Shown one piece after another: positions 1,963 through 45,201 of a stretch of DNA of 58,337 bases. The notes beneath the pieces are model-generated. The model had not been told where the DNA came from and did not search any database. It saw only the letters and a program-made list of their open reading frames with translations. The translations under genes were made by a program, and so were the position numbers. Position 1 is the first letter of the stretch, and every line of letters begins with the position of its first letter. Origin of the DNA: Bacillota bacterium (lineage in GTDB: Bacteria; Bacillota; SHA-98; UBA4971); NCBI GenBank assembly GCA_033809295.1, contig JAPXLY010000002.1, positions 1 through 58,337 on the forward strand. Reading direction: 5' to 3'.

Positions 1963-3030
1963 TCAGTTACAGGCCTTTTTGAGCAGAGAGTATACTTCGC
2001 TATTCTTAACGCGCGGGTTTTCTTCCGCATAATCAAAGGCAGTTTTGCCCTCGTTCGACTTGAGCTTGCCATCAGCCCCGGCATCGAGCAGCACCTCGAC
2101 AACCTCAGGGTTATAACTGCATCTTGCCGCATTCATCAGTGGTGTCAAACCGCCTTCGCCGGTTGTGCCGGATTTCATGCTCTTCGCTATCTCTGCCTTG
2201 ACCTTTTCAAGAGTCAGAAGGTGCATCATGGGATAAACATACATATTCCATTTGCATTCGTGCCTAGCGTTGACATCAGCGCCGGCTGCTATCAATGCCT
2301 TGATAACATCGGGGTCTTGGTTAAATGCTGCAGCACCCATCAGCGGTGTCCAACTGTTATCGTCTCTCGCATTGACTTCAGCGCGTGCTGCCACAAGCGT
2401 CTCAATAATCTCGGCGTTACGGGCAAGTATCGCAGCTATCATCAAAGGTGTCATACCTAGTTCGTTTCTTGAATTGACTTTGGCGCCACCGGCGATCAAC
2501 GCCTCGACAACCGCGGGGGAATCGGAATATGTCACTCCATGATCCAGCGGTGTCCAGCCGTTATTGTCTCTTGCATTCACTTCTGCTTCTGCTGTTATCA
2601 ACGTTGTTATGATCTCGGGGCAGTTATTGGATTTTGCAGCGATCATCAGGGGTGTCGTACCTTCTGAATCTCTCGCATTTACTTTAGCACCTGCTCCTAC
2701 CAGTAAATTGATAATCTCCGGGTTATTAGTGTATAGTGCAGCCATCCTTAGCGGTGCCAGGCCGCGTTCGTCTTTCGCATTCACTTCGGCGCCTGCCTCT
2801 ATTAATATCTTGATGACCTCAAGGTTTGCAAAAGGTGATGCCACTGCGTCTATTAGTGGTGTAAAACCTTCTCTGCTTTCCGCATTGACATCAGCGCCTG
2901 CTGCTATTAGGGCGCGTACCTCGGCTGCGGTCCACCAAGGATTGAAAGGCAGCAAAGAAGGGGCAGCCTCGGCAATCAAACAGGGGAATAGAGCAAGAGC
3001 CAACACGCTTAGAACGAAGATTCTTTTCAT
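1963..3030 (-). CDS. secreted ankyrin-repeat protein (about 8 repeats)
   Basis: N-terminal signal peptide MKRIFVLSVLALALFPCLIAEAAP. Repeated G-x-TPL(M/I)xAA...(L/V)(I/L)xAGAxVNA units (GFTPL, GLAPL, GTTPL, GWTPL, GMTPL, SWTPL, GLTPL, GKTAF). The start at 3030 has better AAGGAG spacing than 3036. Confidence 0.85.
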   Translation of the reverse strand: MKRIFVLSVLALALFPCLIAEAAPSLLPFNPWWTAAEVRALIAAGADVNAESREGFTPLIDAVASPFANLEVIKILIEAGAEVNAKDERGLAPLRMAALYTNNPEIINLLVGAGAKVNARDSEGTTPLMIAAKSNNCPEIITTLITAEAEVNARDNNGWTPLDHGVTYSDSPAVVEALIAGGAKVNSRNELGMTPLMIAAILARNAEIIETLVAARAEVNARDDNSWTPLMGAAAFNQDPDVIKALIAAGADVNARHECKWNMYVYPMMHLLTLEKVKAEIAKSMKSGTTGEGGLTPLMNAARCSYNPEVVEVLLDAGADGKLKSNEGKTAFDYAEENPRVKNSEVYSLLKKACN

Positions 3031-3411
3031 AATCATGTCTCCTTCTCATATAGTGGGATATCTCTTCTTGCTTCTCTGCGATTTCCTGCTGGATTAGATA
3101 TGTGTCTGTGAAATTCGATATGGTCTGTCAATTGATTCCATAGAAACGGCAGGATTCCTTCTTGTTTAAAGGCCACAAAGACAGGTCGTTTCGCTTCAAC
3201 GTTTCTGTTTCACAACGATTGAGGTACATATTTACAGATTGAAATGGGATAGTTCCCGTTCGAGGCATGAATCCAGGGCGAATTCTTTAATGTGAGGTGT
3301 CCTATTCTCGACCACCAAAGGCCCGATGGGTGGTGGAAAACAGGGCAAATCTCTTATGAATTGATCGCTACATCGCAGCCAGGGTTAATTGAGCGTAAAG
3401 CCTTTGAGGCA

Positions 3412-3440
3412 TTGACAGAACCCTGAAGCTCGATTAGAAT
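3412..3440 (+). promoter_or_regulatory. sigma-A type promoter for tRNA-Arg(TCG)
   Basis: TTGACA (3412-3417), 17 nt, TAGAAT (3435-3440), 13 nt before the tRNA. Confidence 0.6.
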
Positions 3441-3453
3441 CAAGTTGCCAAGC

Positions 3454-3529
3454 GCGCCCGTAGCTCAGTGGATAGAGCGTCTGACTTCGGATCAGAAAGC
3501 CGGGGGTTCAAATCCCTCCGGGCGCGCCA
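3454..3529 (+). tRNA. tRNA-Arg (anticodon TCG), CCA encoded
   Basis: Acceptor GCGCCCG/CGGGCGC; D arm GCTC-AGTGGATA-GAGC; anticodon stem TCTGA/TCAGA with loop CTTCGGA; T loop TTCAAAT. Confidence 0.9.
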
Positions 3530-3664
3530 TGTTTTAGCTGGGGTTCTATAGGGTTCCCGGTTTACCCGGAGCCCTATTTTGACTGAGAAGGATGTCTTTA
3601 ATCTGCACTTCTTCCTACAAAGCTGATAAGGTATTGTCTATTCGTCAAAAGAATATGGTTATAT

Positions 3665-4639
3665 CTATGGTTCCTCAAACAGGGTAGGTTGGGGATTGAT
3701 CAAGGTTACACACTCACCCCGCATGATAAGGTCGTAGATTTCCGATGCATGAGCCAAGTCCCTATGATAGAACCGAAAAGCTGACGTAGCAACATAGTTC
3801 AACTCAAGCTCCATTGCAATCCACCTTCTGCCAAGGCTCTCTGCCGCCTCACCGGTGGTATTTGATCCAGCAAAAAAGTCCAGGACTAGGTCGCCCGGGT
3901 CAGTAAGAAACTTGATAAAGAATTCCGGGAGTTCCACTGGGAACCTTGCCGGATGTGCCTTGATTCCAAGTTCTCTGCAACATCGAATATACTGCGAGTT
4001 GCTGTCAGAATTGGAAATGGTCAAAAGATTCGACGGGATAGCTCCACCCTTGTCTACACCAAAATTCAGCGAAATGCTATGACCGGAAGGTCGTTCTTTG
4101 GGCTTATAGAATTTGTCTGGATCGCGTAAGAGTTTCTTCATTCGATCGGAATATGGTACTAGAACTCTTCTTACGTCTGCCTTGGGAAAGTGACTCTTGC
4201 TAAACCACCACACGTGGTTCACGGCATCTTTCGCCCGAATCTTGCGTTTATTGACCCATTCTATTGGTGACGGGAGCTTTGACGGGTTGTACCAAAAGAA
4301 TTCCTCCGCTAAATGATAACCCAAATCTTCGCAGAATCGGATGAGAACCTTATAGGGGTAAAGAGATCGAACAGGCTTTCCTCTCTGGTACGCACCCCCA
4401 ATATCCAGTACGAAGCTACCGTCCTCCGTCAATTTGCTTTTCACCTTAGATGCAAAAACAGAAAGCCAGTCTACGTATTCCGATTGAGGTCTATTACCAT
4501 ATTCTTTCTGGCGCTGAAGAGCAAAAGGAGGAGAGGTTATTGCTAGCTGCACCGATGAGTCTGGCAGCATCTCGATAAGCTCCAGGGAGTTTCCACAATA
4601 TGCCTTCCCGAGCTCTGTAAGATAGTTGGGTTGGTTCAC
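3665..4639 (-). CDS. DNA methyltransferase, beta-class amino-MTase (N4-cytosine or N6-adenine)
   Basis: Motif IV as LAITSPPF lies near the N-terminus and motif I as LVLDFFAGSNTTGEAAE near the C-terminus (beta-class permuted order). GTG start at 4639 with GGGAG upstream. No endonuclease-like ORF lies next to it. Confidence 0.85.
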   Translation of the reverse strand: MNQPNYLTELGKAYCGNSLELIEMLPDSSVQLAITSPPFALQRQKEYGNRPQSEYVDWLSVFASKVKSKLTEDGSFVLDIGGAYQRGKPVRSLYPYKVLIRFCEDLGYHLAEEFFWYNPSKLPSPIEWVNKRKIRAKDAVNHVWWFSKSHFPKADVRRVLVPYSDRMKKLLRDPDKFYKPKERPSGHSISLNFGVDKGGAIPSNLLTISNSDSNSQYIRCCRELGIKAHPARFPVELPEFFIKFLTDPGDLVLDFFAGSNTTGEAAESLGRRWIAMELELNYVATSAFRFYHRDLAHASEIYDLIMRGECVTLINPQPTLFEEP

Positions 4640-15170: not shown

Positions 15171-15546
15171 CCTAAGTAAATCACCATAAGTGATCACCGG
15201 TTCCAGAAAGTGTACGTACCGTGCGGGGCCACCCAAAACCTCAGACAACGAGCGAAAACTGATGAACTCATACTTGGTTTCACAGGCACTCTTAGCCCAG
15301 GCTTAGTAATGGAAAGCTTAACTTACTGGAATTACATTCTCTATTGGCATTCATATTCCTTCAGTTTCCAACAATGGGGCTTATGCTCAACAAAGCTGCA
15401 CGGCGGCTTCCTTCGTGTCTGATAGTATTGGACTGTCTTGGGAATACTCTTAGAAGATCCAGTTCCTCTGCCATAGAGTGGTAAGCGGCGGAAATGGATC
15501 AGGTACCGAAAACAGGATCAAGCGAAACGAAAGAGAGGCACCAGTA

Positions 15547-15813
15547 ATGACGTTGAAGAGTCTATATGTAGGGAATCTGCCCTACCATGCTACTGAGGAA
15601 GATGTCCGCAGTCTATTCGCAGACTATAGTCCGGCAGGTGTCCGGGTCATTCCCGACAAAGGTTTTGGTTTCGTGGAGGTAGCCGAGGACGCAGCCGACG
15701 ATGCCATTGCCGCATTGAACGGAGTCGATTTCCAGGGAAGAAGCCTGACTGTAAACGAGGCTCGTCCACGGCCGGAGCGGACAGGTGAAGGCGGTCATCA
15801 TCACAGACGGTAA
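15547..15813 (+). CDS. RRM-type RNA-binding protein
   Basis: RNP2 LYVGNL and RNP1 KGFGFVEV motifs, with a short basic/His tail. AGAGAGG lies upstream of ATG 15547. Confidence 0.9.
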   Translation: MTLKSLYVGNLPYHATEEDVRSLFADYSPAGVRVIPDKGFGFVEVAEDAADDAIAALNGVDFQGRSLTVNEARPRPERTGEGGHHHRR

Positions 15814-20582: not shown

Positions 20583-21548
20583 ATGAGGCTAAGGTTTGCA
20601 AAGCTCAACCCGGCGGGTAATATCACCATACTTGTCCTGGATCCGGTCCACGAGTCTATCCATGCAAAGGTGGCAGCGGATCTGATGAACCCTGCTGTCC
20701 TTGGCGGAGAGCAGGTGGGCTTTGTTACGCTTATGTCAGAGGGCCCGGTCGCAGCCTCCATGCGAATGATGGGTGGTGAGTTCTGCGGTAATGCAGTCAG
20801 ATCCCTTGGAGCCTATCTGGCGTCAATAAGGCATCCGGCAATGGGAGTGACGAAAGGCAATACCAACCTATTGCAAGGACTTATCCAAGTACAAGGCCTG
20901 GATGAGCCTATCCTCGTCGAGGCTGAACTGGACCAAGAGGAGCTGCCGCATTGGGCATCATGTGCGTTTCCCGGCGTGCCTGAGGTCGAGTTCTATTTCG
21001 TGGAAGCTCTCTCATGGACTGCAGGCGGGCTTGACAAAAACATTCGCATCCTGCCGTGTCTCAGCCCTAAAGATGTGCTCGAATCATGGCTGGGAGAGGT
21101 TTCCCTGAGGCTGCGGCCGACTGTTGTGGCACTGGTCAGATTGGAGAGAATCACACACATAGTTGTGGATGCAAGGGACTATCGTATGGAAGAGGATGTT
21201 CTCTTGGAGCTGTGCGATACTTTAGGGCTGGAAGATGAGGCATGTGTCGGGGTCATGTTCCGCCAGGGATTTGATGAGATAGTGCCTCTGGTATATGTAG
21301 AAGCCACTGATACGTTTGTTTGGGAGTCAAGTTGTGCCTCGGGCAGTGTCGCTGTTGCCCTGGCCTATGCAACCGCGCGCGGAGAACCGGGGAGCTACAG
21401 CTTTAAGCAGCCTGGTGGGACTCTATCCGTCACTGTTACGCCACCCAATACGGGCGGGGCTCATTCAGCTCCTTATGCTACGGTCAGTGGAGAGGTGAGA
21501 CTGGTAGCTGAAGGCACTGTTTTCATTGACACTGTCTTCATACATTGA
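20583..21548 (+). CDS. DapF-fold (PLP-independent) racemase/epimerase-like protein, substrate unknown
   Basis: Two half-domains, each with a Cys in the DapF-type context (GGEFCGNAVRSLG and WESSCASGSVAVALA). GGAGGGTGG lies upstream of ATG 20583. Confidence 0.65.
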   Translation: MRLRFAKLNPAGNITILVLDPVHESIHAKVAADLMNPAVLGGEQVGFVTLMSEGPVAASMRMMGGEFCGNAVRSLGAYLASIRHPAMGVTKGNTNLLQGLIQVQGLDEPILVEAELDQEELPHWASCAFPGVPEVEFYFVEALSWTAGGLDKNIRILPCLSPKDVLESWLGEVSLRLRPTVVALVRLERITHIVVDARDYRMEEDVLLELCDTLGLEDEACVGVMFRQGFDEIVPLVYVEATDTFVWESSCASGSVAVALAYATARGEPGSYSFKQPGGTLSVTVTPPNTGGAHSAPYATVSGEVRLVAEGTVFIDTVFIH

Positions 21549-21559
21549 CACTTCTTGCT

Positions 21560-22133
21560 GGAATTCCGCAAGGCATAGAGCGTAACATGTAGTCAACTAA
21601 CGTTATTGCTGCAAGGGAGCAATTGGAACTGGCTGTTGGATATTGGAAAATGGTGTCATCACACTGTAATGAGTTACATGATTGTGACAAGGGATCAATT
21701 ACCACAGCATACCATCTTCGGACCGGCTCACTGGGTGGGCCAAGCAACCGCATGGGAGTCATTAAATCTGCTTGAATGGCCCACTGGATGGGCCACTCAA
21801 CTACACCGAAGTCATCGGATCCCCTAAGATGGCTCACTGGGTGGGCCACACTCCCTGCGGAAGCCCTTAGATCCCCTTGAGTGGCTCCCCTGCATGGGCC
21901 ATTCAACTACACGAAAGCCATCGGATCCGCTTGACTGGCTCTCAGGGAGAGCCAATCGACCGTCTGGACGCTTTCAAACTCCCCTGAATGGCTCTTTTGC
22001 TGAGCCACGTTGAAGTAGGATACCCTATAAGGGAGCTTTGATATGCTCCATGCGACATCACCCTGATGGCAAGGACAGGATAGGCTCTCTTAAAAGTCAG
22101 CGGGGTGATTCGGGATAAGACAAAGAGCATATA
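21560..22133 (+). repeat. copy 1 of a two-copy modular element (5' block, six 53-nt hairpin modules, 3' block); candidate structured RNA
   Basis: Alignable by eye with 38238-38730. Hairpins TGGCYC..GRGCCA start at 21724, 21777, 21830, 21882, 21936 and 21989. U.G pairs are valid only on the + strand. See findings. Confidence 0.9.
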
Positions 22134-22304
22134 AGGGGATATCCTTCAGAAAACGCTTAATTTGGGGGAAAGGGGGCTTTATATGCTCTTTCATAGATGG
22201 GTAGGACTCCCATCTAACCTGACGGCTACAACCAGAGTGCCAGTTGAAACGCATACCCAGGGGAAACGGCGTTTGCGGAATTTCTGATTAGGCCGGCAGG
22301 CATC

Positions 22305-22758: not shown

Positions 22759-22804
22759 GCCGGAGCCCGGGCAACCAAGGCTGTAAAGGAGGTTGCCTTC
22801 ACTT

Positions 22805-23401
22805 ATGAACAGGAGAACCAGAACACTTGTAACATTAGGTGTACTTGCGTCTATAGCAGTGCTTTTGTCCCTTGTCAACTGGCCGCTATTTCCATCAGCT
22901 CCGCATTTGCGCTTCGAGACGGCTGACGTGCCTGTGTTAATTGCAGGATTCGCTTTTGGGCCGGGCGCGGGATTGATGGTGACTTTCATTATGGCGGTCT
23001 TGATGGCTGCCATCACAGGCCTTGACGGGGCAGTCGGAGCCTTGATGCATTTCCTGAGCACAGGCAGCCTGGTGCTGGCTGCAAGCTTTGTGTACAGACG
23101 ATATCATACGCTTGGCGGTGCTATAGCAGGTCTCATAGCAGGCACTATCGCACAGACTCTGGTAATGCCTCTTGTGAATCTGGCAATAATCCCCTTAATC
23201 TACGGATTCTCCAGACAGCAAATAGTAGCCATGCTCCCTATACTGTTTGCCTTTAATGCTGTCAAAGCCGGGCTCAGTTCGATTCTCACGTTTCTTGTAT
23301 ACAAGCGCGTATCATGGTTGCTCAAGGGTTTGGTTCGAGACAGCGAAGATGCCGGGATTATCACGGCCAGGCAGTGCCCGGCAAGGCAAACCCGGCGCTA
23401 G
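22805..23401 (+). CDS. ribU: ECF-transporter S component, probably the riboflavin-specific RibU
   Basis: ~198-aa, six-helix hydrophobic protein (ETADVPVLIAGFAFGPGAGL). The substrate is inferred from the FMN riboswitch upstream. AAGGAGG lies 12 nt before ATG 22805. Confidence 0.75.
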   Translation: MNRRTRTLVTLGVLASIAVLLSLVNWPLFPSAPHLRFETADVPVLIAGFAFGPGAGLMVTFIMAVLMAAITGLDGAVGALMHFLSTGSLVLAASFVYRRYHTLGGAIAGLIAGTIAQTLVMPLVNLAIIPLIYGFSRQQIVAMLPILFAFNAVKAGLSSILTFLVYKRVSWLLKGLVRDSEDAGIITARQCPARQTRR

Positions 23402-38125: not shown

Positions 38126-38237
38126 CTGCTATCCCGTAAGAAAATACTGTAAAGTATGAAACGCATAATGTCAAGCCATTCGACAGACTAGTCGACAAGC
38201 CAGTCGACAAGCAGTTGCCTGCTGTAACCCTGCGAGC

Positions 38238-38730
38238 GGAAATTCCGCAAGTCATAGAGCGCAATATGTGCTGAGCCGGCGTAAATACTCAAAGGGAGCA
38301 ACTGGAAGAGGGGAGCAACCGGAAGAGGCTATTGGATTTTCGGAAATACTATCATGGCATTGTAATGAGTTGTCTGACTCGGACAAAGGATCGATTACCA
38401 AGGCATTCCATCTTCGGAGTGGCTCACTGGATGGGCCAATCGGTAGCCGAAAGGACCTCAAATCCGCGTGAGTGGCTCTCGGGACGAGCCACTCGGCGAT
38501 GGATCCGCTGTGAAGTCTACTTGACTGGCTCTCAGGGAGAGTCGGTCGGCAGTTGGAAGCACATTAGAACTGCTTAAGTGGCTCTTCTGCCGAGCCACGT
38601 TGGACTAAGATACCTATTACCTATTAAGGGAGCTTTGGTATGATCCGTACGACGTCACCCTGATGGCAAGGACAAGATAGGCTTTTTTGAAAGTCGATGG
38701 GGTGATTCGGGGTAAGACAGAAAGCATATA
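38238..38730 (+). repeat. copy 2 of the modular element (5' block with an internal 17-nt duplication, four 53-nt hairpin modules, 3' block); candidate structured RNA
   Basis: Alignable with 21560-22133. Hairpins start at 38420, 38473, 38526 and 38579 (exact 53-nt period). See findings. Confidence 0.9.
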
Positions 38731-39169
38731 TTGGTTTATGTCATTGCCGCAGGGGATGTGTTATTATATGGATAAGGCCGGCTGGAGAGCAGGATCAGAT
38801 GGATGTACGTTCATATCAGGAGCCACGAACGTAGTGCTGTTTTGAATCTACCGAACAGGCTCCGGATAGCTAGCGCGGATTCCGGCATTTCGTGAGGCAT
38901 GGTTACGACAGGGGCTTCATATGAGATCGAATGCAAGGACTGATGCAGGGACTGATGGAAGACCTTCCCAGAGTCATTATGTTGTTCAAGGAGGACACCG
39001 AGGCTTTCCTGGACGCACTGACCCGGATGATCCGTATGATTCGTGAGATTGAGGAATGACAGACTGATCATCCTGAGAAGGAATCCGCGGCCTGAGGGAG
39101 AACTAAAGTAAATGGCAACAATGACAGCCCCATGAAGGGGCGACTTCCGAACTGCATAGGAGGCCTGCC

Positions 39170-39951: not shown

Positions 39952-40500
39952 ATGAGGGACGGCAATATTAGGAATCTGATTTTAGGTGGACTGTTCGTGG
40001 CACTGGGAATTATTGTGCCAATTGCATTTCATTCCATTGGCGCAGGCCCTGTATTTCTTCCCATGCATATTCCAGTTTTACTCGCAGGATTCATAACCGG
40101 GCCTGCCATTGGAGGCCTGGTCGGGGCTGTGACCCCTATCTTGAGTTCTCTCTTGACAGGGATGCCTCCCCTTATGCCTCCTAAGGCCCAGATGATGGTG
40201 GCGGAGCTCGCCGTGTACGGCCTGCTTTCCGGATTTGCTTACAGAACCCGGAGGCTTCATGTGATCTTGTCATTGATTATCGCTATGTTCGGTGGACGGA
40301 TTGTTTACGGGATTCTCGCAGCCTACGTTTTGCCGTTATTCGGATTCAGCCCGGTTCCGGTTCTCTATCCGATAACAGCGGGACTCGTTACGAGTGTTCC
40401 GGGAATAGTAATTCAACTGCTGCTTATCCCGTCTGTTGTATGGCTCCTTGAAAAGCAGCTTAAGGCGGACAAACCTGCCCGCAACACCTCGCGTAAGTAG
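39952..40500 (+). CDS. ECF-transporter S component, substrate unknown
   Basis: 182-aa, 5-6 TM protein (LFVALGIIVPIAFHSIGAGPVFLPMHIPVLLAGFITGP). GGAAAGGGG lies 8 nt before the ATG. No EcfA/T genes are nearby. Confidence 0.75.
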   Translation: MRDGNIRNLILGGLFVALGIIVPIAFHSIGAGPVFLPMHIPVLLAGFITGPAIGGLVGAVTPILSSLLTGMPPLMPPKAQMMVAELAVYGLLSGFAYRTRRLHVILSLIIAMFGGRIVYGILAAYVLPLFGFSPVPVLYPITAGLVTSVPGIVIQLLLIPSVVWLLEKQLKADKPARNTSRK

Positions 40501-40763: not shown

Positions 40764-40970
40764 GTGCTGTGCCGCGGTGCGGCACCACCGTGCTATATCA
40801 CAGTGCTGTATCATGGCGCTGTACCATGGCGGGGCGTACCACAGCGTTGTATCGCGGCACTACATCACATCACTGTGCCGTCGTGCTGCATTACAGTACT
40901 GCACACGATACTGTACTACAAGGCTGTATCATAGCACTGTTCTGTGGCGCTGCATTACAATGCTCTGCCC
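40764..40970 (+). repeat. degenerate ~13-nt tandem repeat tract (GYGCTGYAYYAYR, about 16 units)
   Basis: Read directly: gtgctgtgccgcg gtgcggcaccacc gtgctatatcaca gtgctgtatcatg gcgctgtaccatg ... gcgctgcattaca atgctctgccc. Confidence 0.85.
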
Positions 40971-41106: not shown

Positions 41107-41194
41107 AGTGCTATGCTACGGTGCTATGCTACGGTAGCTGTGCTGTGTTACGGCGTGGGTTACGGCACCGCACTACGTGTGCTACTGTACCATG
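41107..41194 (+). repeat. second block of ~13-nt repeats (GTGCTATGCTACG type)
   Basis: agtgctatgctacg gtgctatgctacg gtagctgtgctgtgttacg gcgtgggttacg gcaccgcactacg tgtgctactgtaccatg. Confidence 0.8.
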
Positions 41195-45095: not shown

Positions 45096-45201
45096 GATGA
45101 CAGGCGGTAGGCAGGCCTTGATGACGGTAGGGATTAATGGCCTAGGCAAGCTCTGATGACGATAGGGATTAAAGGCCAGGCAGGCCTTGCTGACGGAGCT
45201 T
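45096..45201 (+). repeat. intergenic tandem repeat (~34-nt unit GATGACGRTAGGGATTAAWGGCC.AGGCA.GC.CT, 2 full and 2 partial copies)
   Basis: Read directly between uxaC and the SDR gene. The units contain small palindromes (AAGGCC..GGCCTT, GCCTAGGC). Confidence 0.85.

What the first reader, a model, noticed from the sequence alone, without database searches (positions are those of the whole stretch)
38238..38772. Copy 2 of the element: comparing the two copies shows RNA-type rather than protein-type conservation, with module copy-number variation
Positions 38238-38730 align with copy 1 through the same 5' and 3' blocks, at roughly 75-85% identity by eye. The middle differs. There are four modules instead of six, at an exact 53-nt spacing (38420, 38473, 38526, 38579). 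There is also a 17-nt internal duplication in the 5' block (GGGAGCAACYGGAAGAG twice, 38294-38327). Hairpin 38526-38544 (TGGCTCTC/GAGAGTCG) keeps all eight pairs only through one G.U and one U.G on the + strand; on the - strand these would be C.A and A.C mismatches. Hairpins 38472-38492 and 38578-38598 (GTGGCTC/GAGCCAC) have one more base pair than their copy-1 counterparts. ORFs overlap both copies in the same frame (21606..21827 and 38332..38577), but in the best-conserved stretch the aligned codon differences fall on first or second positions (agg/aag, caa/cga, cag/agg, acc/tcc, ccg/gtg, gtg/atg). I saw no purely synonymous third-position change there. This argues against protein coding and for nucleotide- or structure-level selection. 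Two copies that are diverged, yet preserved in blocks and variable in module number, resemble either paralogous structured RNAs or a BOX-like (boxA-boxB(n)-boxC) dispersed repeat of the kind known in Streptococcus pneumoniae.
Basis: seen in the sequence. Interest (0 to 1): 0.8.

Follow-up and report, generated by a model that had tools for sequence, protein, structure and literature searches.

The report
BOX-like mobile repeat with hairpin modules
The region is one of two diverged copies of a non-coding insertion element from an uncultured biogas-reactor bacterium, built from inverted-repeat ends and a variable run of 53-base hairpin units, so it resembles a modular "junk" repeat such as the pneumococcal BOX element more than a dedicated RNA gene.

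Summary
Copy 2 (about 38231-38775) and copy 1 (about 21556-22287) align at 77% identity. They carry 4 and 6 modules of 53 nt, each with a conserved hairpin, and a 17-nt duplication lies in copy 2. No reading frame shows a coding signal, and nothing matches Rfam.

Comparison with related metagenome genomes changes the interpretation. At both loci, close relatives have clean empty sites. Where the element is present it is bounded by inverted termini (TGCAGGAATTCCGCAAGC ... GCTTGCGGAATTCCTGCA). In one species these are flanked by a 7-bp direct repeat (CAGGCCG) that occurs once in the empty site. Module number ranges from 6 to 14 among strains of one species. Fragments and further copies occur in at least two more contexts shown by DNA or protein evidence, with two more suggested.

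The module hairpin keeps its pairing through compensatory changes and mildly favours the + strand. The 5' block and the tail show no covariation. The "3' block" is specific to this species.

Best reading: a MITE-like composite (A-Bn-C, BOX-type) non-autonomous mobile element. An RNA-level role for the hairpin array (loops CWGGR, CsrB-like CAGGAAG in one species) is possible but untested. Interest is modest.

The parts
38231..38251 (+). Copy 2 left terminus, TGCGAGCGGAAATTCCGCAAG (palindromic GGAA(A)TTCC core).
   Evidence: Read. Homologous to the left termini of copy 1, L151 and L238.
38252..38412 (+). Copy 2 5' block, including the 17-nt tandem duplication at 38294-38328.
   Evidence: The nhmmer 5'-block profile hits 38229-38404. 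There is no covariation and no coding signal.
38413..38624 (+). Copy 2 array of four 53-nt modules. Hairpins lie at 38420-38438, 38473-38491, 38526-38544 and 38579-38597.
38618..38739 (+). Copy 2 species-specific 3' block (TAAGGGAGC ... TCACCCTGATGGCAAGGACA ... GGGGTGATTCGGG).
   Evidence: 82% identical to 22021-22142 (family D4). Shortened in species B and in L249.
38740..38775 (+). Copy 2 degenerate remnant of the tail and right terminus. It is followed by AAGGCCGGCTGG (38776-38787), which resembles the right flank of copy 1.
   Evidence: Read. This is inference.
21556..21572 (+). Copy 1 left terminus, TGCTGGAATTCCGCAAG.
21573..21716 (+). Copy 1 5' block.
21717..22034 (+). Copy 1 array of six 53-nt modules.
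22021..22142 (+). Copy 1 3' block.
   Evidence: family D4.
22143..22273 (+). Copy 1 tail, including the hairpin AGATGGG-N7-CCCATCT. It is conserved in species B and in L249.
   Evidence: (78% identity to L238 4370 onward).
22274..22287 (+). Copy 1 right terminus, TGCGGAATTTCTGA, the inverted counterpart of the left terminus.

Best explanation
The region is one copy of a non-coding, non-autonomous mobile element: a MITE-like composite repeat with the A-B(n)-C layout known from pneumococcal BOX elements. The host is an uncultured Bacillota lineage from anaerobic digesters.

**Anatomy (shown).**
- The termini are inverted repeats starting 5'-TG and ending CA-3' around a GGAATTCC core.
- A roughly 160-nt 5' block follows the left terminus.
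- Next comes a tandem array of 53-nt modules. Each holds a 7-bp GC-rich hairpin (UGGCYCN/NGRGCCA, loop CWGGR), often extended by UUGA/UCRR.
- A variable 3' block and a conserved tail precede the right terminus.

**History (shown).** The element is present or absent at the same sites among close relatives, and the module number changes quickly.

**Mechanism (inferred).**
- A DDE-type transposase encoded elsewhere moved it in trans into intergenic spacers next to NAGGCCG-like sequences.
- The array grows and shrinks by slippage or unequal recombination, and copies exchange modules.
- Any effect on neighbouring genes comes from hairpins formed in read-through + strand transcripts. Such an effect would be a by-product of the insertion, not the reason the element exists.
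For: **Empty sites.**
- At locus 2, a sister species with 82% identical flanks has unrelated or highly diverged sequence of much smaller size in place of window 38200 to about 38840: 226 nt between the BLAST homology blocks, about 75 nt by eye from the MAFFT alignment.
- At locus 1, species C (cntK-like gene 86% identical) has 40 nt and species A has 64 nt in place of window 21550-22301.

**Termini.**
- In L238, GCAGGAATTCCGCA (3101-3114) and TGCGGAATTCCTGC (4478-4491) are a perfect 14-nt inverted repeat.
- The L151 left end matches the reverse complement of the L238 right end at 18 of 18 positions.
- Copy 1 matches at 12 of 16 positions.

**Target-site duplication.** CAGGCCG flanks both ends in species B (3094-3100 and 4493-4499). 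The empty site of species C has a single TAAGCCCG. The right flanks of both window copies are also NAGGCCG.

**Module number.** The counts are 14, 12, 9 and 6 in four strains that share an identical RibU protein, 6 and 4 in the window, and at least 10 in L151. The strain in L014 has swapped one module plus linker for a copy-1-type unit.

**Other contexts.** A truncated copy lies in L246-248. Spurious ORFs P0215, P0218 and P0220 read through further copies with different flanks.

**No coding signal**. **No Rfam family**.

**Published parallel.** BOX elements are described as modular, with TIRs and TSDs and a strain-variable boxB number. S. suis variants have 115-133-nt end modules (PMC3049150).
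Against: - Copy number looks low. There are two copies in 58 kb and no extra copies in about 2 Mb of fetched DNA, only a minority of it from related genomes. The whole genome could not be searched.
- The duplication is clear only in species B. Copy 1 and copy 2 lack a left-hand copy, and copy 2 has no recognisable right terminus.
- No transposase with matching ends was found. There is none in the window.
- The element has the genome's GC content (about 50%), unlike typical AT-rich MITEs, and it is long (0.55-1.4 kb).
- The locus-1 insertions in three species look orthologous, so they count as one event.
- The conserved loop sequence and the + strand wobble bias hint at selection on a transcript.
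Confidence: 0.6

Rival explanations
1. The element is a lineage-specific structured non-coding RNA gene whose hairpin array titrates an RNA-binding protein, in the manner of a CsrB/RsmZ sponge for CsrA. It would be carried on, or derived from, a mobile cassette.
For: - The module hairpin is paired in 86% of cells, against 25-41% for slid controls. Compensatory U-A/C-G exchanges occur at three positions.
- Wobble pairs favour the + strand, 37 cells against 16.
- Loops are CWGGR in 29 of 36 modules. In species B, 12 of the 14 modules carry CAGGAAG, the CsrB-type CAGGA(U/C/A)G repeat (the consensus is from my own knowledge).
- GGA is 2-4 times commoner than TCC on the + strand and 1.5-2 sd above shuffles.
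- A group II intron sits in the array in the same orientation.
Against: - Close relatives lack the element at both loci.
- About half of the loops in the window and in L151 read GGG or lack GG, which would not fit CsrA.
- No promoter or terminator was found by the consensus scans, which also cover flanking sequence.
- The 5' block and tail lack covariation.
- Cells in the wobble count are not independent.
- Whether the genome has csrA is unknown.
Confidence: 0.2
2. The element is a palindrome-associated element of the IS200/IS605 (PATE) or REP/RAYT type. A single-strand Y1 transposase would recognise the GGAATTCC hairpins at each end and insert next to a fixed target sequence without duplicating it.
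For: - Each terminus can itself fold as a hairpin, GC(N)GGAATTCC(N)GC.
- The right flanks share NAGGCCG.
- The empty sites are seamless.
- Copies 1 and 2 have no duplication.
Against: - The ends form a true inverted repeat, and a 7-bp duplication is present in species B.
- The module motif is confined to the two copies rather than scattered as REPs are.
- All modules point the same way, unlike BIMEs.
- No TnpA, RAYT or TnpB gene was seen, and there is no HEARO/omega RNA match.
Confidence: 0.1
3. The element works at the DNA level as a phased array of palindromic protein-binding sites, like the sopC centromere of plasmid F or an iteron array.
For: - The period is strictly 52-54 bp, about five helical turns.
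- Each unit has a 7-bp inverted repeat with a conserved centre.
- sopC of plasmid F is 12 units of 43 bp, each with 7-bp inverted repeats (my own knowledge).
Against: - The locus is chromosomal (tadA, SRP RNA, dnaX, recR nearby), with no partition or replication genes close by.
- Wobble-type imperfections are biased to one strand, which double-stranded recognition would not produce.
- Inheritance by tandem duplication explains the fixed period.
Confidence: 0.04

Closest known systems
BOX elements of Streptococcus pneumoniae, and the boxE/boxF-flanked variants of S. suis
   Same: - The layout is composite: a conserved 5' module, a tandem array of a short hairpin-forming module in variable number, and a conserved 3' module.
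- Both have terminal inverted repeats and a target-site duplication.
- Both lie between genes.
- Array length differs between strains, and more so for longer arrays.
- The middle module folds on its own, so its number can change (PMC3049150).
   Different: - No sequence relationship was tested or is expected.
- The module is 53 nt here, against 45 nt for boxB (my own knowledge).
- The end blocks are larger (about 160 nt and 130-270 nt).
- The host is a different lineage, an uncultured and probably diderm Bacillota.
- Copy number looks low, whereas a pneumococcal genome holds over 100 BOX copies.
- The hairpin loop is conserved (CWGGR).
Bacterial MITEs in general (Correia/NEMIS, RUP, Nezha, ERIC)
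   Same: - Non-coding.
- Terminal inverted repeats.
- Insertion polymorphism with empty sites.
- Strong predicted secondary structure.
- Located between genes.
   Different: - Longer than most MITEs.
- Not AT-rich.
- Contains an internal variable-number tandem repeat.
- The partner transposase is unknown.
CsrB/RsmZ-type protein-sponge RNAs
   Same: Many repeated hairpins present GG(A) in the loop. The species B modules carry CAGGAAG.
   Different: - The element is not conserved among close relatives.
- No promoter or terminator was found.
- Many loops lack GGA.
- It has transposon-like ends.

Membership tests
MITE (non-autonomous DDE-type element) | Terminal inverted repeats | tested here: met
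   L238 3101-3114 against 4478-4491 gives 14 of 14. The L151 left end against the reverse complement of the L238 right end gives 18 of 18. Copy 1 gives 12 of 16. Copy 2 has lost its right end.
MITE (non-autonomous DDE-type element) | Target-site duplication | tested here: inconclusive
   A 7-bp CAGGCCG lies on both sides in species B, and the empty site of species C holds one copy. Copies 1 and 2 lack it on the left side.
MITE (non-autonomous DDE-type element) | Presence/absence polymorphism with intact empty sites in relatives | tested here: met
   Locus 2. Locus 1.
MITE (non-autonomous DDE-type element) | No coding capacity | tested here: met
   Codon-position and synonymous-fraction test in six frames. 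The 53-nt period and the 17-nt duplication break any frame. The only protein 'homologues' are spurious ORFs.
MITE (non-autonomous DDE-type element) | Many dispersed copies per genome | tested here: inconclusive
   There are two copies in 58 kb. DNA or protein evidence shows at least two further contexts (L246; P0215), and P0218 and P0220 suggest more. No extra copy turned up in 2 Mb of fetched DNA. The whole genome was not available.
MITE (non-autonomous DDE-type element) | A cognate insertion sequence or transposase with the same ends | not testable with these tools
   The window has no transposase.
BOX element (Streptococcus) | A-B(n)-C modular layout with a variable number of the middle module | tested here: met
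   Between 4 and 14 modules lie between conserved end blocks.
BOX element (Streptococcus) | Sequence homology to boxA, boxB and boxC (boxB about 45 nt) | not tested
   No reference BOX sequence was compared. The module is 53 nt long and the host lineage differs, so this is an analogue, not a member.
Structured non-coding RNA gene | Conserved secondary structure supported by covariation over the whole molecule | tested here: not met
   Only the module hairpin is supported. The 5' block has 0 compensatory pairs out of 22 and the tail has 1 out of 38. The sets are small, with 3-5 sequences.
Structured non-coding RNA gene | Conserved at the orthologous position in related genomes | tested here: not met
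   Absent in species A and C and in L157. Present in species B and in L151.
Structured non-coding RNA gene | Match to a curated RNA family | tested here: not met
   No Rfam hit at the gathering threshold, and none of significance at E up to 10.
CsrB/RsmZ-type sponge | GGA motifs in most hairpin loops | tested here: inconclusive
   Species B has CAGGA in 12 of its 14 modules. The window has GGA in 5 of 10 module loops, and L151 mostly has CUGGG.
CsrB/RsmZ-type sponge | CsrA encoded in the same genome | not testable with these tools
   Only 58 kb of the genome is available.
REP/BIME | High-copy dispersed palindromes, alternating orientation within clusters | tested here: not met
   The motif occurs only inside the two copies, and all modules are direct repeats.
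CRISPR array | Near-identical repeats separated by unique spacers, with cas genes | tested here: not met
   The whole 53-nt unit repeats, linker included. No cas genes are nearby.
Type III toxin-antitoxin (ToxI-like repeat RNA) | Repeat array directly upstream of a toxin gene | tested here: not met
   An FMN riboswitch and ribU follow copy 1. A leader and a DUF3842 gene follow copy 2.

The most novel reading that the evidence does not exclude
The hairpin array may be the working part of a mobile, fast-evolving RNA decoy. When transcribed on the + strand, the 4-14 phased hairpins with CWGGR loops (CAGGAAG in one species) would soak up a CsrA-like or other RNA-binding protein. Strains would then tune the dose by changing the module number. 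That would make it a CsrB-type sponge carried on a transposable cassette in Bacillota, where I know of no RNA antagonist of CsrA.
Probability: 0.08. Interest if true: 0.7.

Novelty: new member of a known kind. Interest (0 to 1): 0.3.

Why it matters
This adds a BOX-type composite repeat family from an uncultured digester Bacillota lineage, far from streptococci. The A-B(n)-C modular design therefore seems to recur among bacterial non-autonomous elements.

On the practical side, the arrays break short-read assemblies: several contigs end inside them. They could also serve as variable-number tandem-repeat markers for telling strains apart.

The conserved hairpin loop, and a group II intron lodged just after one hairpin, give concrete handles for asking whether such repeats act as RNA. 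As it stands, this is a routine genome-annotation result.

Tried and rejected
- **Rfam.** Gathering and permissive thresholds on both copies and on related loci gave nothing relevant.
- **Genome-collection scan.** The 18-mer ACCCTGATGGCAAGGACA gave 12 hits in unrelated taxa, none with the second block. The window's species is not in that collection.
- **Metagenome scan.** This scan was wasted.
- **Viral contigs, phage records and plasmids.** Nothing real.
- **Protein coding, + strand or - strand.** A - strand frame stays open over the 5' block in several copies, but the substitutions show no codon bias. Rejected.
- **Consensus RNA folds.** The 5' block and the tail show no covariation. Single-sequence fold z-scores do not separate the strands.
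- **Other kinds considered and rejected.** These were a CRISPR array, a type III antitoxin repeat, REP/BIME, an ORF-less group II intron and a leader for the downstream ECF transporter gene. The ribU and azlC promoters lie outside the insertion and are conserved at the empty sites.
- **The TCACCC...GGGTGA 3' block as the functional core.** It is not conserved in species B or in L249. Rejected.

Full report
**1. What is at the coordinates**

Window 38227-38739 aligns with 21548-22142 at 77% mean identity (MAFFT). Ungapped blocks are 73-86% identical (families D3, D4, D8, D14). Both copies hold a run of 53-nt units. TRF reports the copy-1 array (21766-21941, period 53) and the 17-nt duplication at 38294-38328.

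The hairpin motif TGGCYC-N5-9-GRGCC occurs 17 times in the window, counting both strands. All matches fall inside the two copies, and shuffles give 1.06. Copy 1 has six modules.

Nothing in Rfam matches either copy, at the gathering threshold or at E up to 10.

**2. Genomic setting**

The window is chromosomal DNA of an uncultured Bacillota bacterium from anaerobic digesters. Identical DNA occurs in MAGs GCA_012512055.1 and GCA_036836215.1 and in digester metagenomes. Sources name relatives "Bacillota bacterium".

Copy 1 lies between a CntK_N (histidine-racemase-like) gene and an FMN riboswitch followed by ribU. Copy 2 lies between a divergent azlC and a leader followed by a DUF3842 gene and an ECF S-component gene. 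The window contains no transposase.

**3. Comparison with relatives**

*Locus 2.*
- The DUF3842 protein of a sister species is 91% identical, and its locus is syntenic and about 82% identical in DNA.
- The homology breaks at window 38199 and resumes by BLAST at 39098. The MAFFT alignment, read by eye, suggests weaker similarity from about 38840. In between, the sister has unrelated or highly diverged sequence (226 nt between the BLAST blocks) and no trace of the element.

*Locus 1.*
- Species C has a cntK-like gene 86% identical in DNA. It carries 40 nt where the window has 21550-22301.
- Species A carries 64 nt there.
- Species B and the L151 organism do carry the element at this site.
- A more distant relative, L157, has other repeats there instead.

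The element is thus present or absent at the same position among close relatives, with clean empty sites.

**4. Ends**

In species B (L238), the element runs from 3101 to 4492.
- Its left end, GCAGGAATTCCGCA, and its right end, TGCGGAATTCCTGC, are a perfect 14-nt inverted repeat.
- The left end in L151 (TGCAGGAATTCCGCAAGC) equals the reverse complement of the L238 right end at 18 of 18 positions.
- Copy 1 of the window has TGCTGGAATTCCGCAAG (21556-21572) and TGCGGAATTTCTGA (22274-22287).
- Copy 2 keeps the left end (38231-38251) but has lost most of the tail and the right end.

In species B, the 7-mer CAGGCCG lies directly outside both ends (3094-3100 and 4493-4499). The empty site of species C has one TAAGCCCG at that place. 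This is the pattern of a target-site duplication. The right flanks of the two window copies are TAGGCCG and AAGGCCG, which hints at a preferred target. Their left flanks show no second copy, and copy 1 has a 24-nt deletion there. I therefore rate the duplication as seen once, not as established.

Ends of the form 5'-TG...CA-3' with a 5-7-bp duplication are typical of several DDE transposase families (my own knowledge).

**5. Internal variability**

Four strains of species B that encode the same RibU protein have 14, 12, 9 and 6 modules. L151 has at least 10. Several contigs end inside arrays.

A strain whose copy 2 is 93.6% identical (L014) has replaced one module and linker with a copy-1-type unit. 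Species B and L151 carry an extra 260-330-nt insert after the 5' block. The TCACCC...GGGTGATTCGGG 3' block occurs only in the two window copies, while the tail (22160-22287) is shared with species B and L249.

The element is therefore a mosaic: end block, optional insert, array, optional block, tail.

**6. Other contexts**

I searched 1.84 billion representative proteins with the spurious - strand ORF 21538-21906. This returned five short "proteins" that are read-throughs of further copies.
- P0217 is a truncated copy in L246-248. It lacks the left 65 nt and the array.
- P0215 covers a left end with a different flank.
- P0218 and P0220 are module arrays. P0218 is flanked on both sides by sequence unlike the 5' block or tail. 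P0220 shares its tail-side sequence with P0219/L249, and whether its genomic context differs was not determined.
- P0219 is L249. Its right flank resembles locus 1 but is followed by a tRNA gene, and a group II intron sits inside the array.

**7. Coding or not**

Across four or five homologues of the 5' block, differences fall evenly on the three codon positions in every frame. An example is 81/68/95 in the most open frame. The synonymous fraction never exceeds 0.31. The 53-nt period and the 17-nt duplication also break frames.

**8. RNA structure**

An alignment of 36 distinct modules supports one hairpin.
- 86.4% of cells pair, against 25-41% when partners are slid.
- Compensatory U-A/C-G exchange occurs at three positions.
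- Only 1 of 500 shuffles reaches the observed covariation score.
- Wobble pairs that work only on the + strand outnumber those that would work only on the - strand, 37 to 16. These cells are not independent, so this is a mild lean to the + strand.
- Loops read CWGGR in 29 of 36 modules.

The 5' block gives a weak consensus fold (-7 kcal/mol, 0 of 22 pairs compensatory). The tail is conserved in sequence but has 1 compensatory pair out of 38. Whole-copy fold z-scores do not separate the strands: -2.7 and -3.2 for the + strand, -1.1 and -4.5 for the - strand. The consensus scans, which also cover flanking sequence, found no terminator in the element on the + strand and only weak promoter-like matches.

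**9. Interpretation**

The best-supported reading is a non-autonomous, MITE-like composite repeat of the BOX type. The points in its favour are:
- inverted termini;
- one clear duplication;
- clean empty sites at two loci;
- a fast-changing internal array with exchange between copies;
- fragments elsewhere;
- no coding capacity.

Published descriptions of BOX elements list the same set of traits, and S. suis variants have 115-133-nt end modules (PMC3049150).

The points against are the apparently low copy number, the missing duplications at the window copies, the unknown transposase, the length and the ordinary GC content.

The main rival is a functional RNA whose hairpins bind a protein. The conserved loop, the CsrB-like CAGGAAG loops of species B, the GGA excess on the + strand and the strand bias keep it alive. 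The absence from close relatives and the many GGG or GG-less loops weigh against it. The two readings are not exclusive, because BOX elements are themselves transcribed and affect neighbouring genes.

A single-strand (IS200/IS605 or REP-type) mechanism and a DNA-level binding array are less likely, for the reasons given under the rival explanations.

**10. Verdict**

This is a new family of a known kind of element, in an uncultured lineage. It is of modest interest unless the hairpin array proves to act as an RNA decoy.

Noticed in passing
L249:645-2461 (- strand of the locus, which is the + strand of the element): A complete group II intron sits inside a 53-nt module array. It has Rfam D1-D4 and domain V/VI matches and a 471-aa RT/maturase ORF. 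It starts 6 nt after a module hairpin (...TGGCCCACTGGATGGGCCAATCGGC|GTGCGCC) and lies in the same orientation as the element. Insertion just after a GC-rich hairpin is what class C introns do at terminators (my own knowledge). The intron class was not determined.
   Followed up: partly
window:22610-22760: A 22-nt tandem repeat (GCCAGTTAGACCAGAGTGCTAT, about 4 copies) lies between the FMN riboswitch aptamer and the ribU start codon. Short GTGCTAT-containing tandem repeats also occur at 40786-40831 and 41108-41144, downstream of the second ECF S-component gene.
   Followed up: no
L157:1400-2060 and L238:3300-3540: A different repeat family of the TTCGAAAATAGAGCAC / GTGCTC...GAGCAC type fills the cntK-ribU spacer in a more distant relative. 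It also occurs inside the extra insert of the species B element.
   Followed up: no
window:38845-39169: A leader upstream of the DUF3842 gene and ECF S-component operon is conserved with the sister species. It holds a 42-aa ORF (38931-39059; no Pfam match, truncated in the sister) and a GC hairpin, GCCCCATGAAGGGGC (39127-39141), just before the ribosome-binding site. There is no Rfam match. It could be an uncharacterised attenuator or riboswitch.
   Followed up: partly
window:38172-38212: A 12-nt tandem repeat (CAAGCCAGTCGA, 3.4 copies) lies directly left of copy 2. A degenerate version is present at the empty site of the sister species, so it belongs to the flank and not to the element.
   Followed up: partly
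window:21556-22287 and 38231-38775: Both window copies lie upstream of, and on the same strand as, an ECF transporter S-component gene (ribU at 22793-23401; the unnamed gene at 39952-40500, only 25% identical to ribU). With two cases this may be coincidence. In L249 the downstream gene is a tRNA.
   Followed up: partly
window:8311-11060 and 1963-3036 and 15478-15813: The window holds two TolC-like outer-membrane efflux genes (OEP) next to MacB/HlyD-type pump genes, which suggests a diderm Bacillota lineage. It also holds a bacterial ankyrin-repeat protein (102-nt DNA periodicity) and an RRM_1 RNA-binding protein.
   Followed up: no
window:34783-34869 and 45108-45196: Two unrelated tandem repeats of 34-35 nt (2.6 copies each, 80-84% matches) were reported by TRF and not examined.
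   Followed up: no
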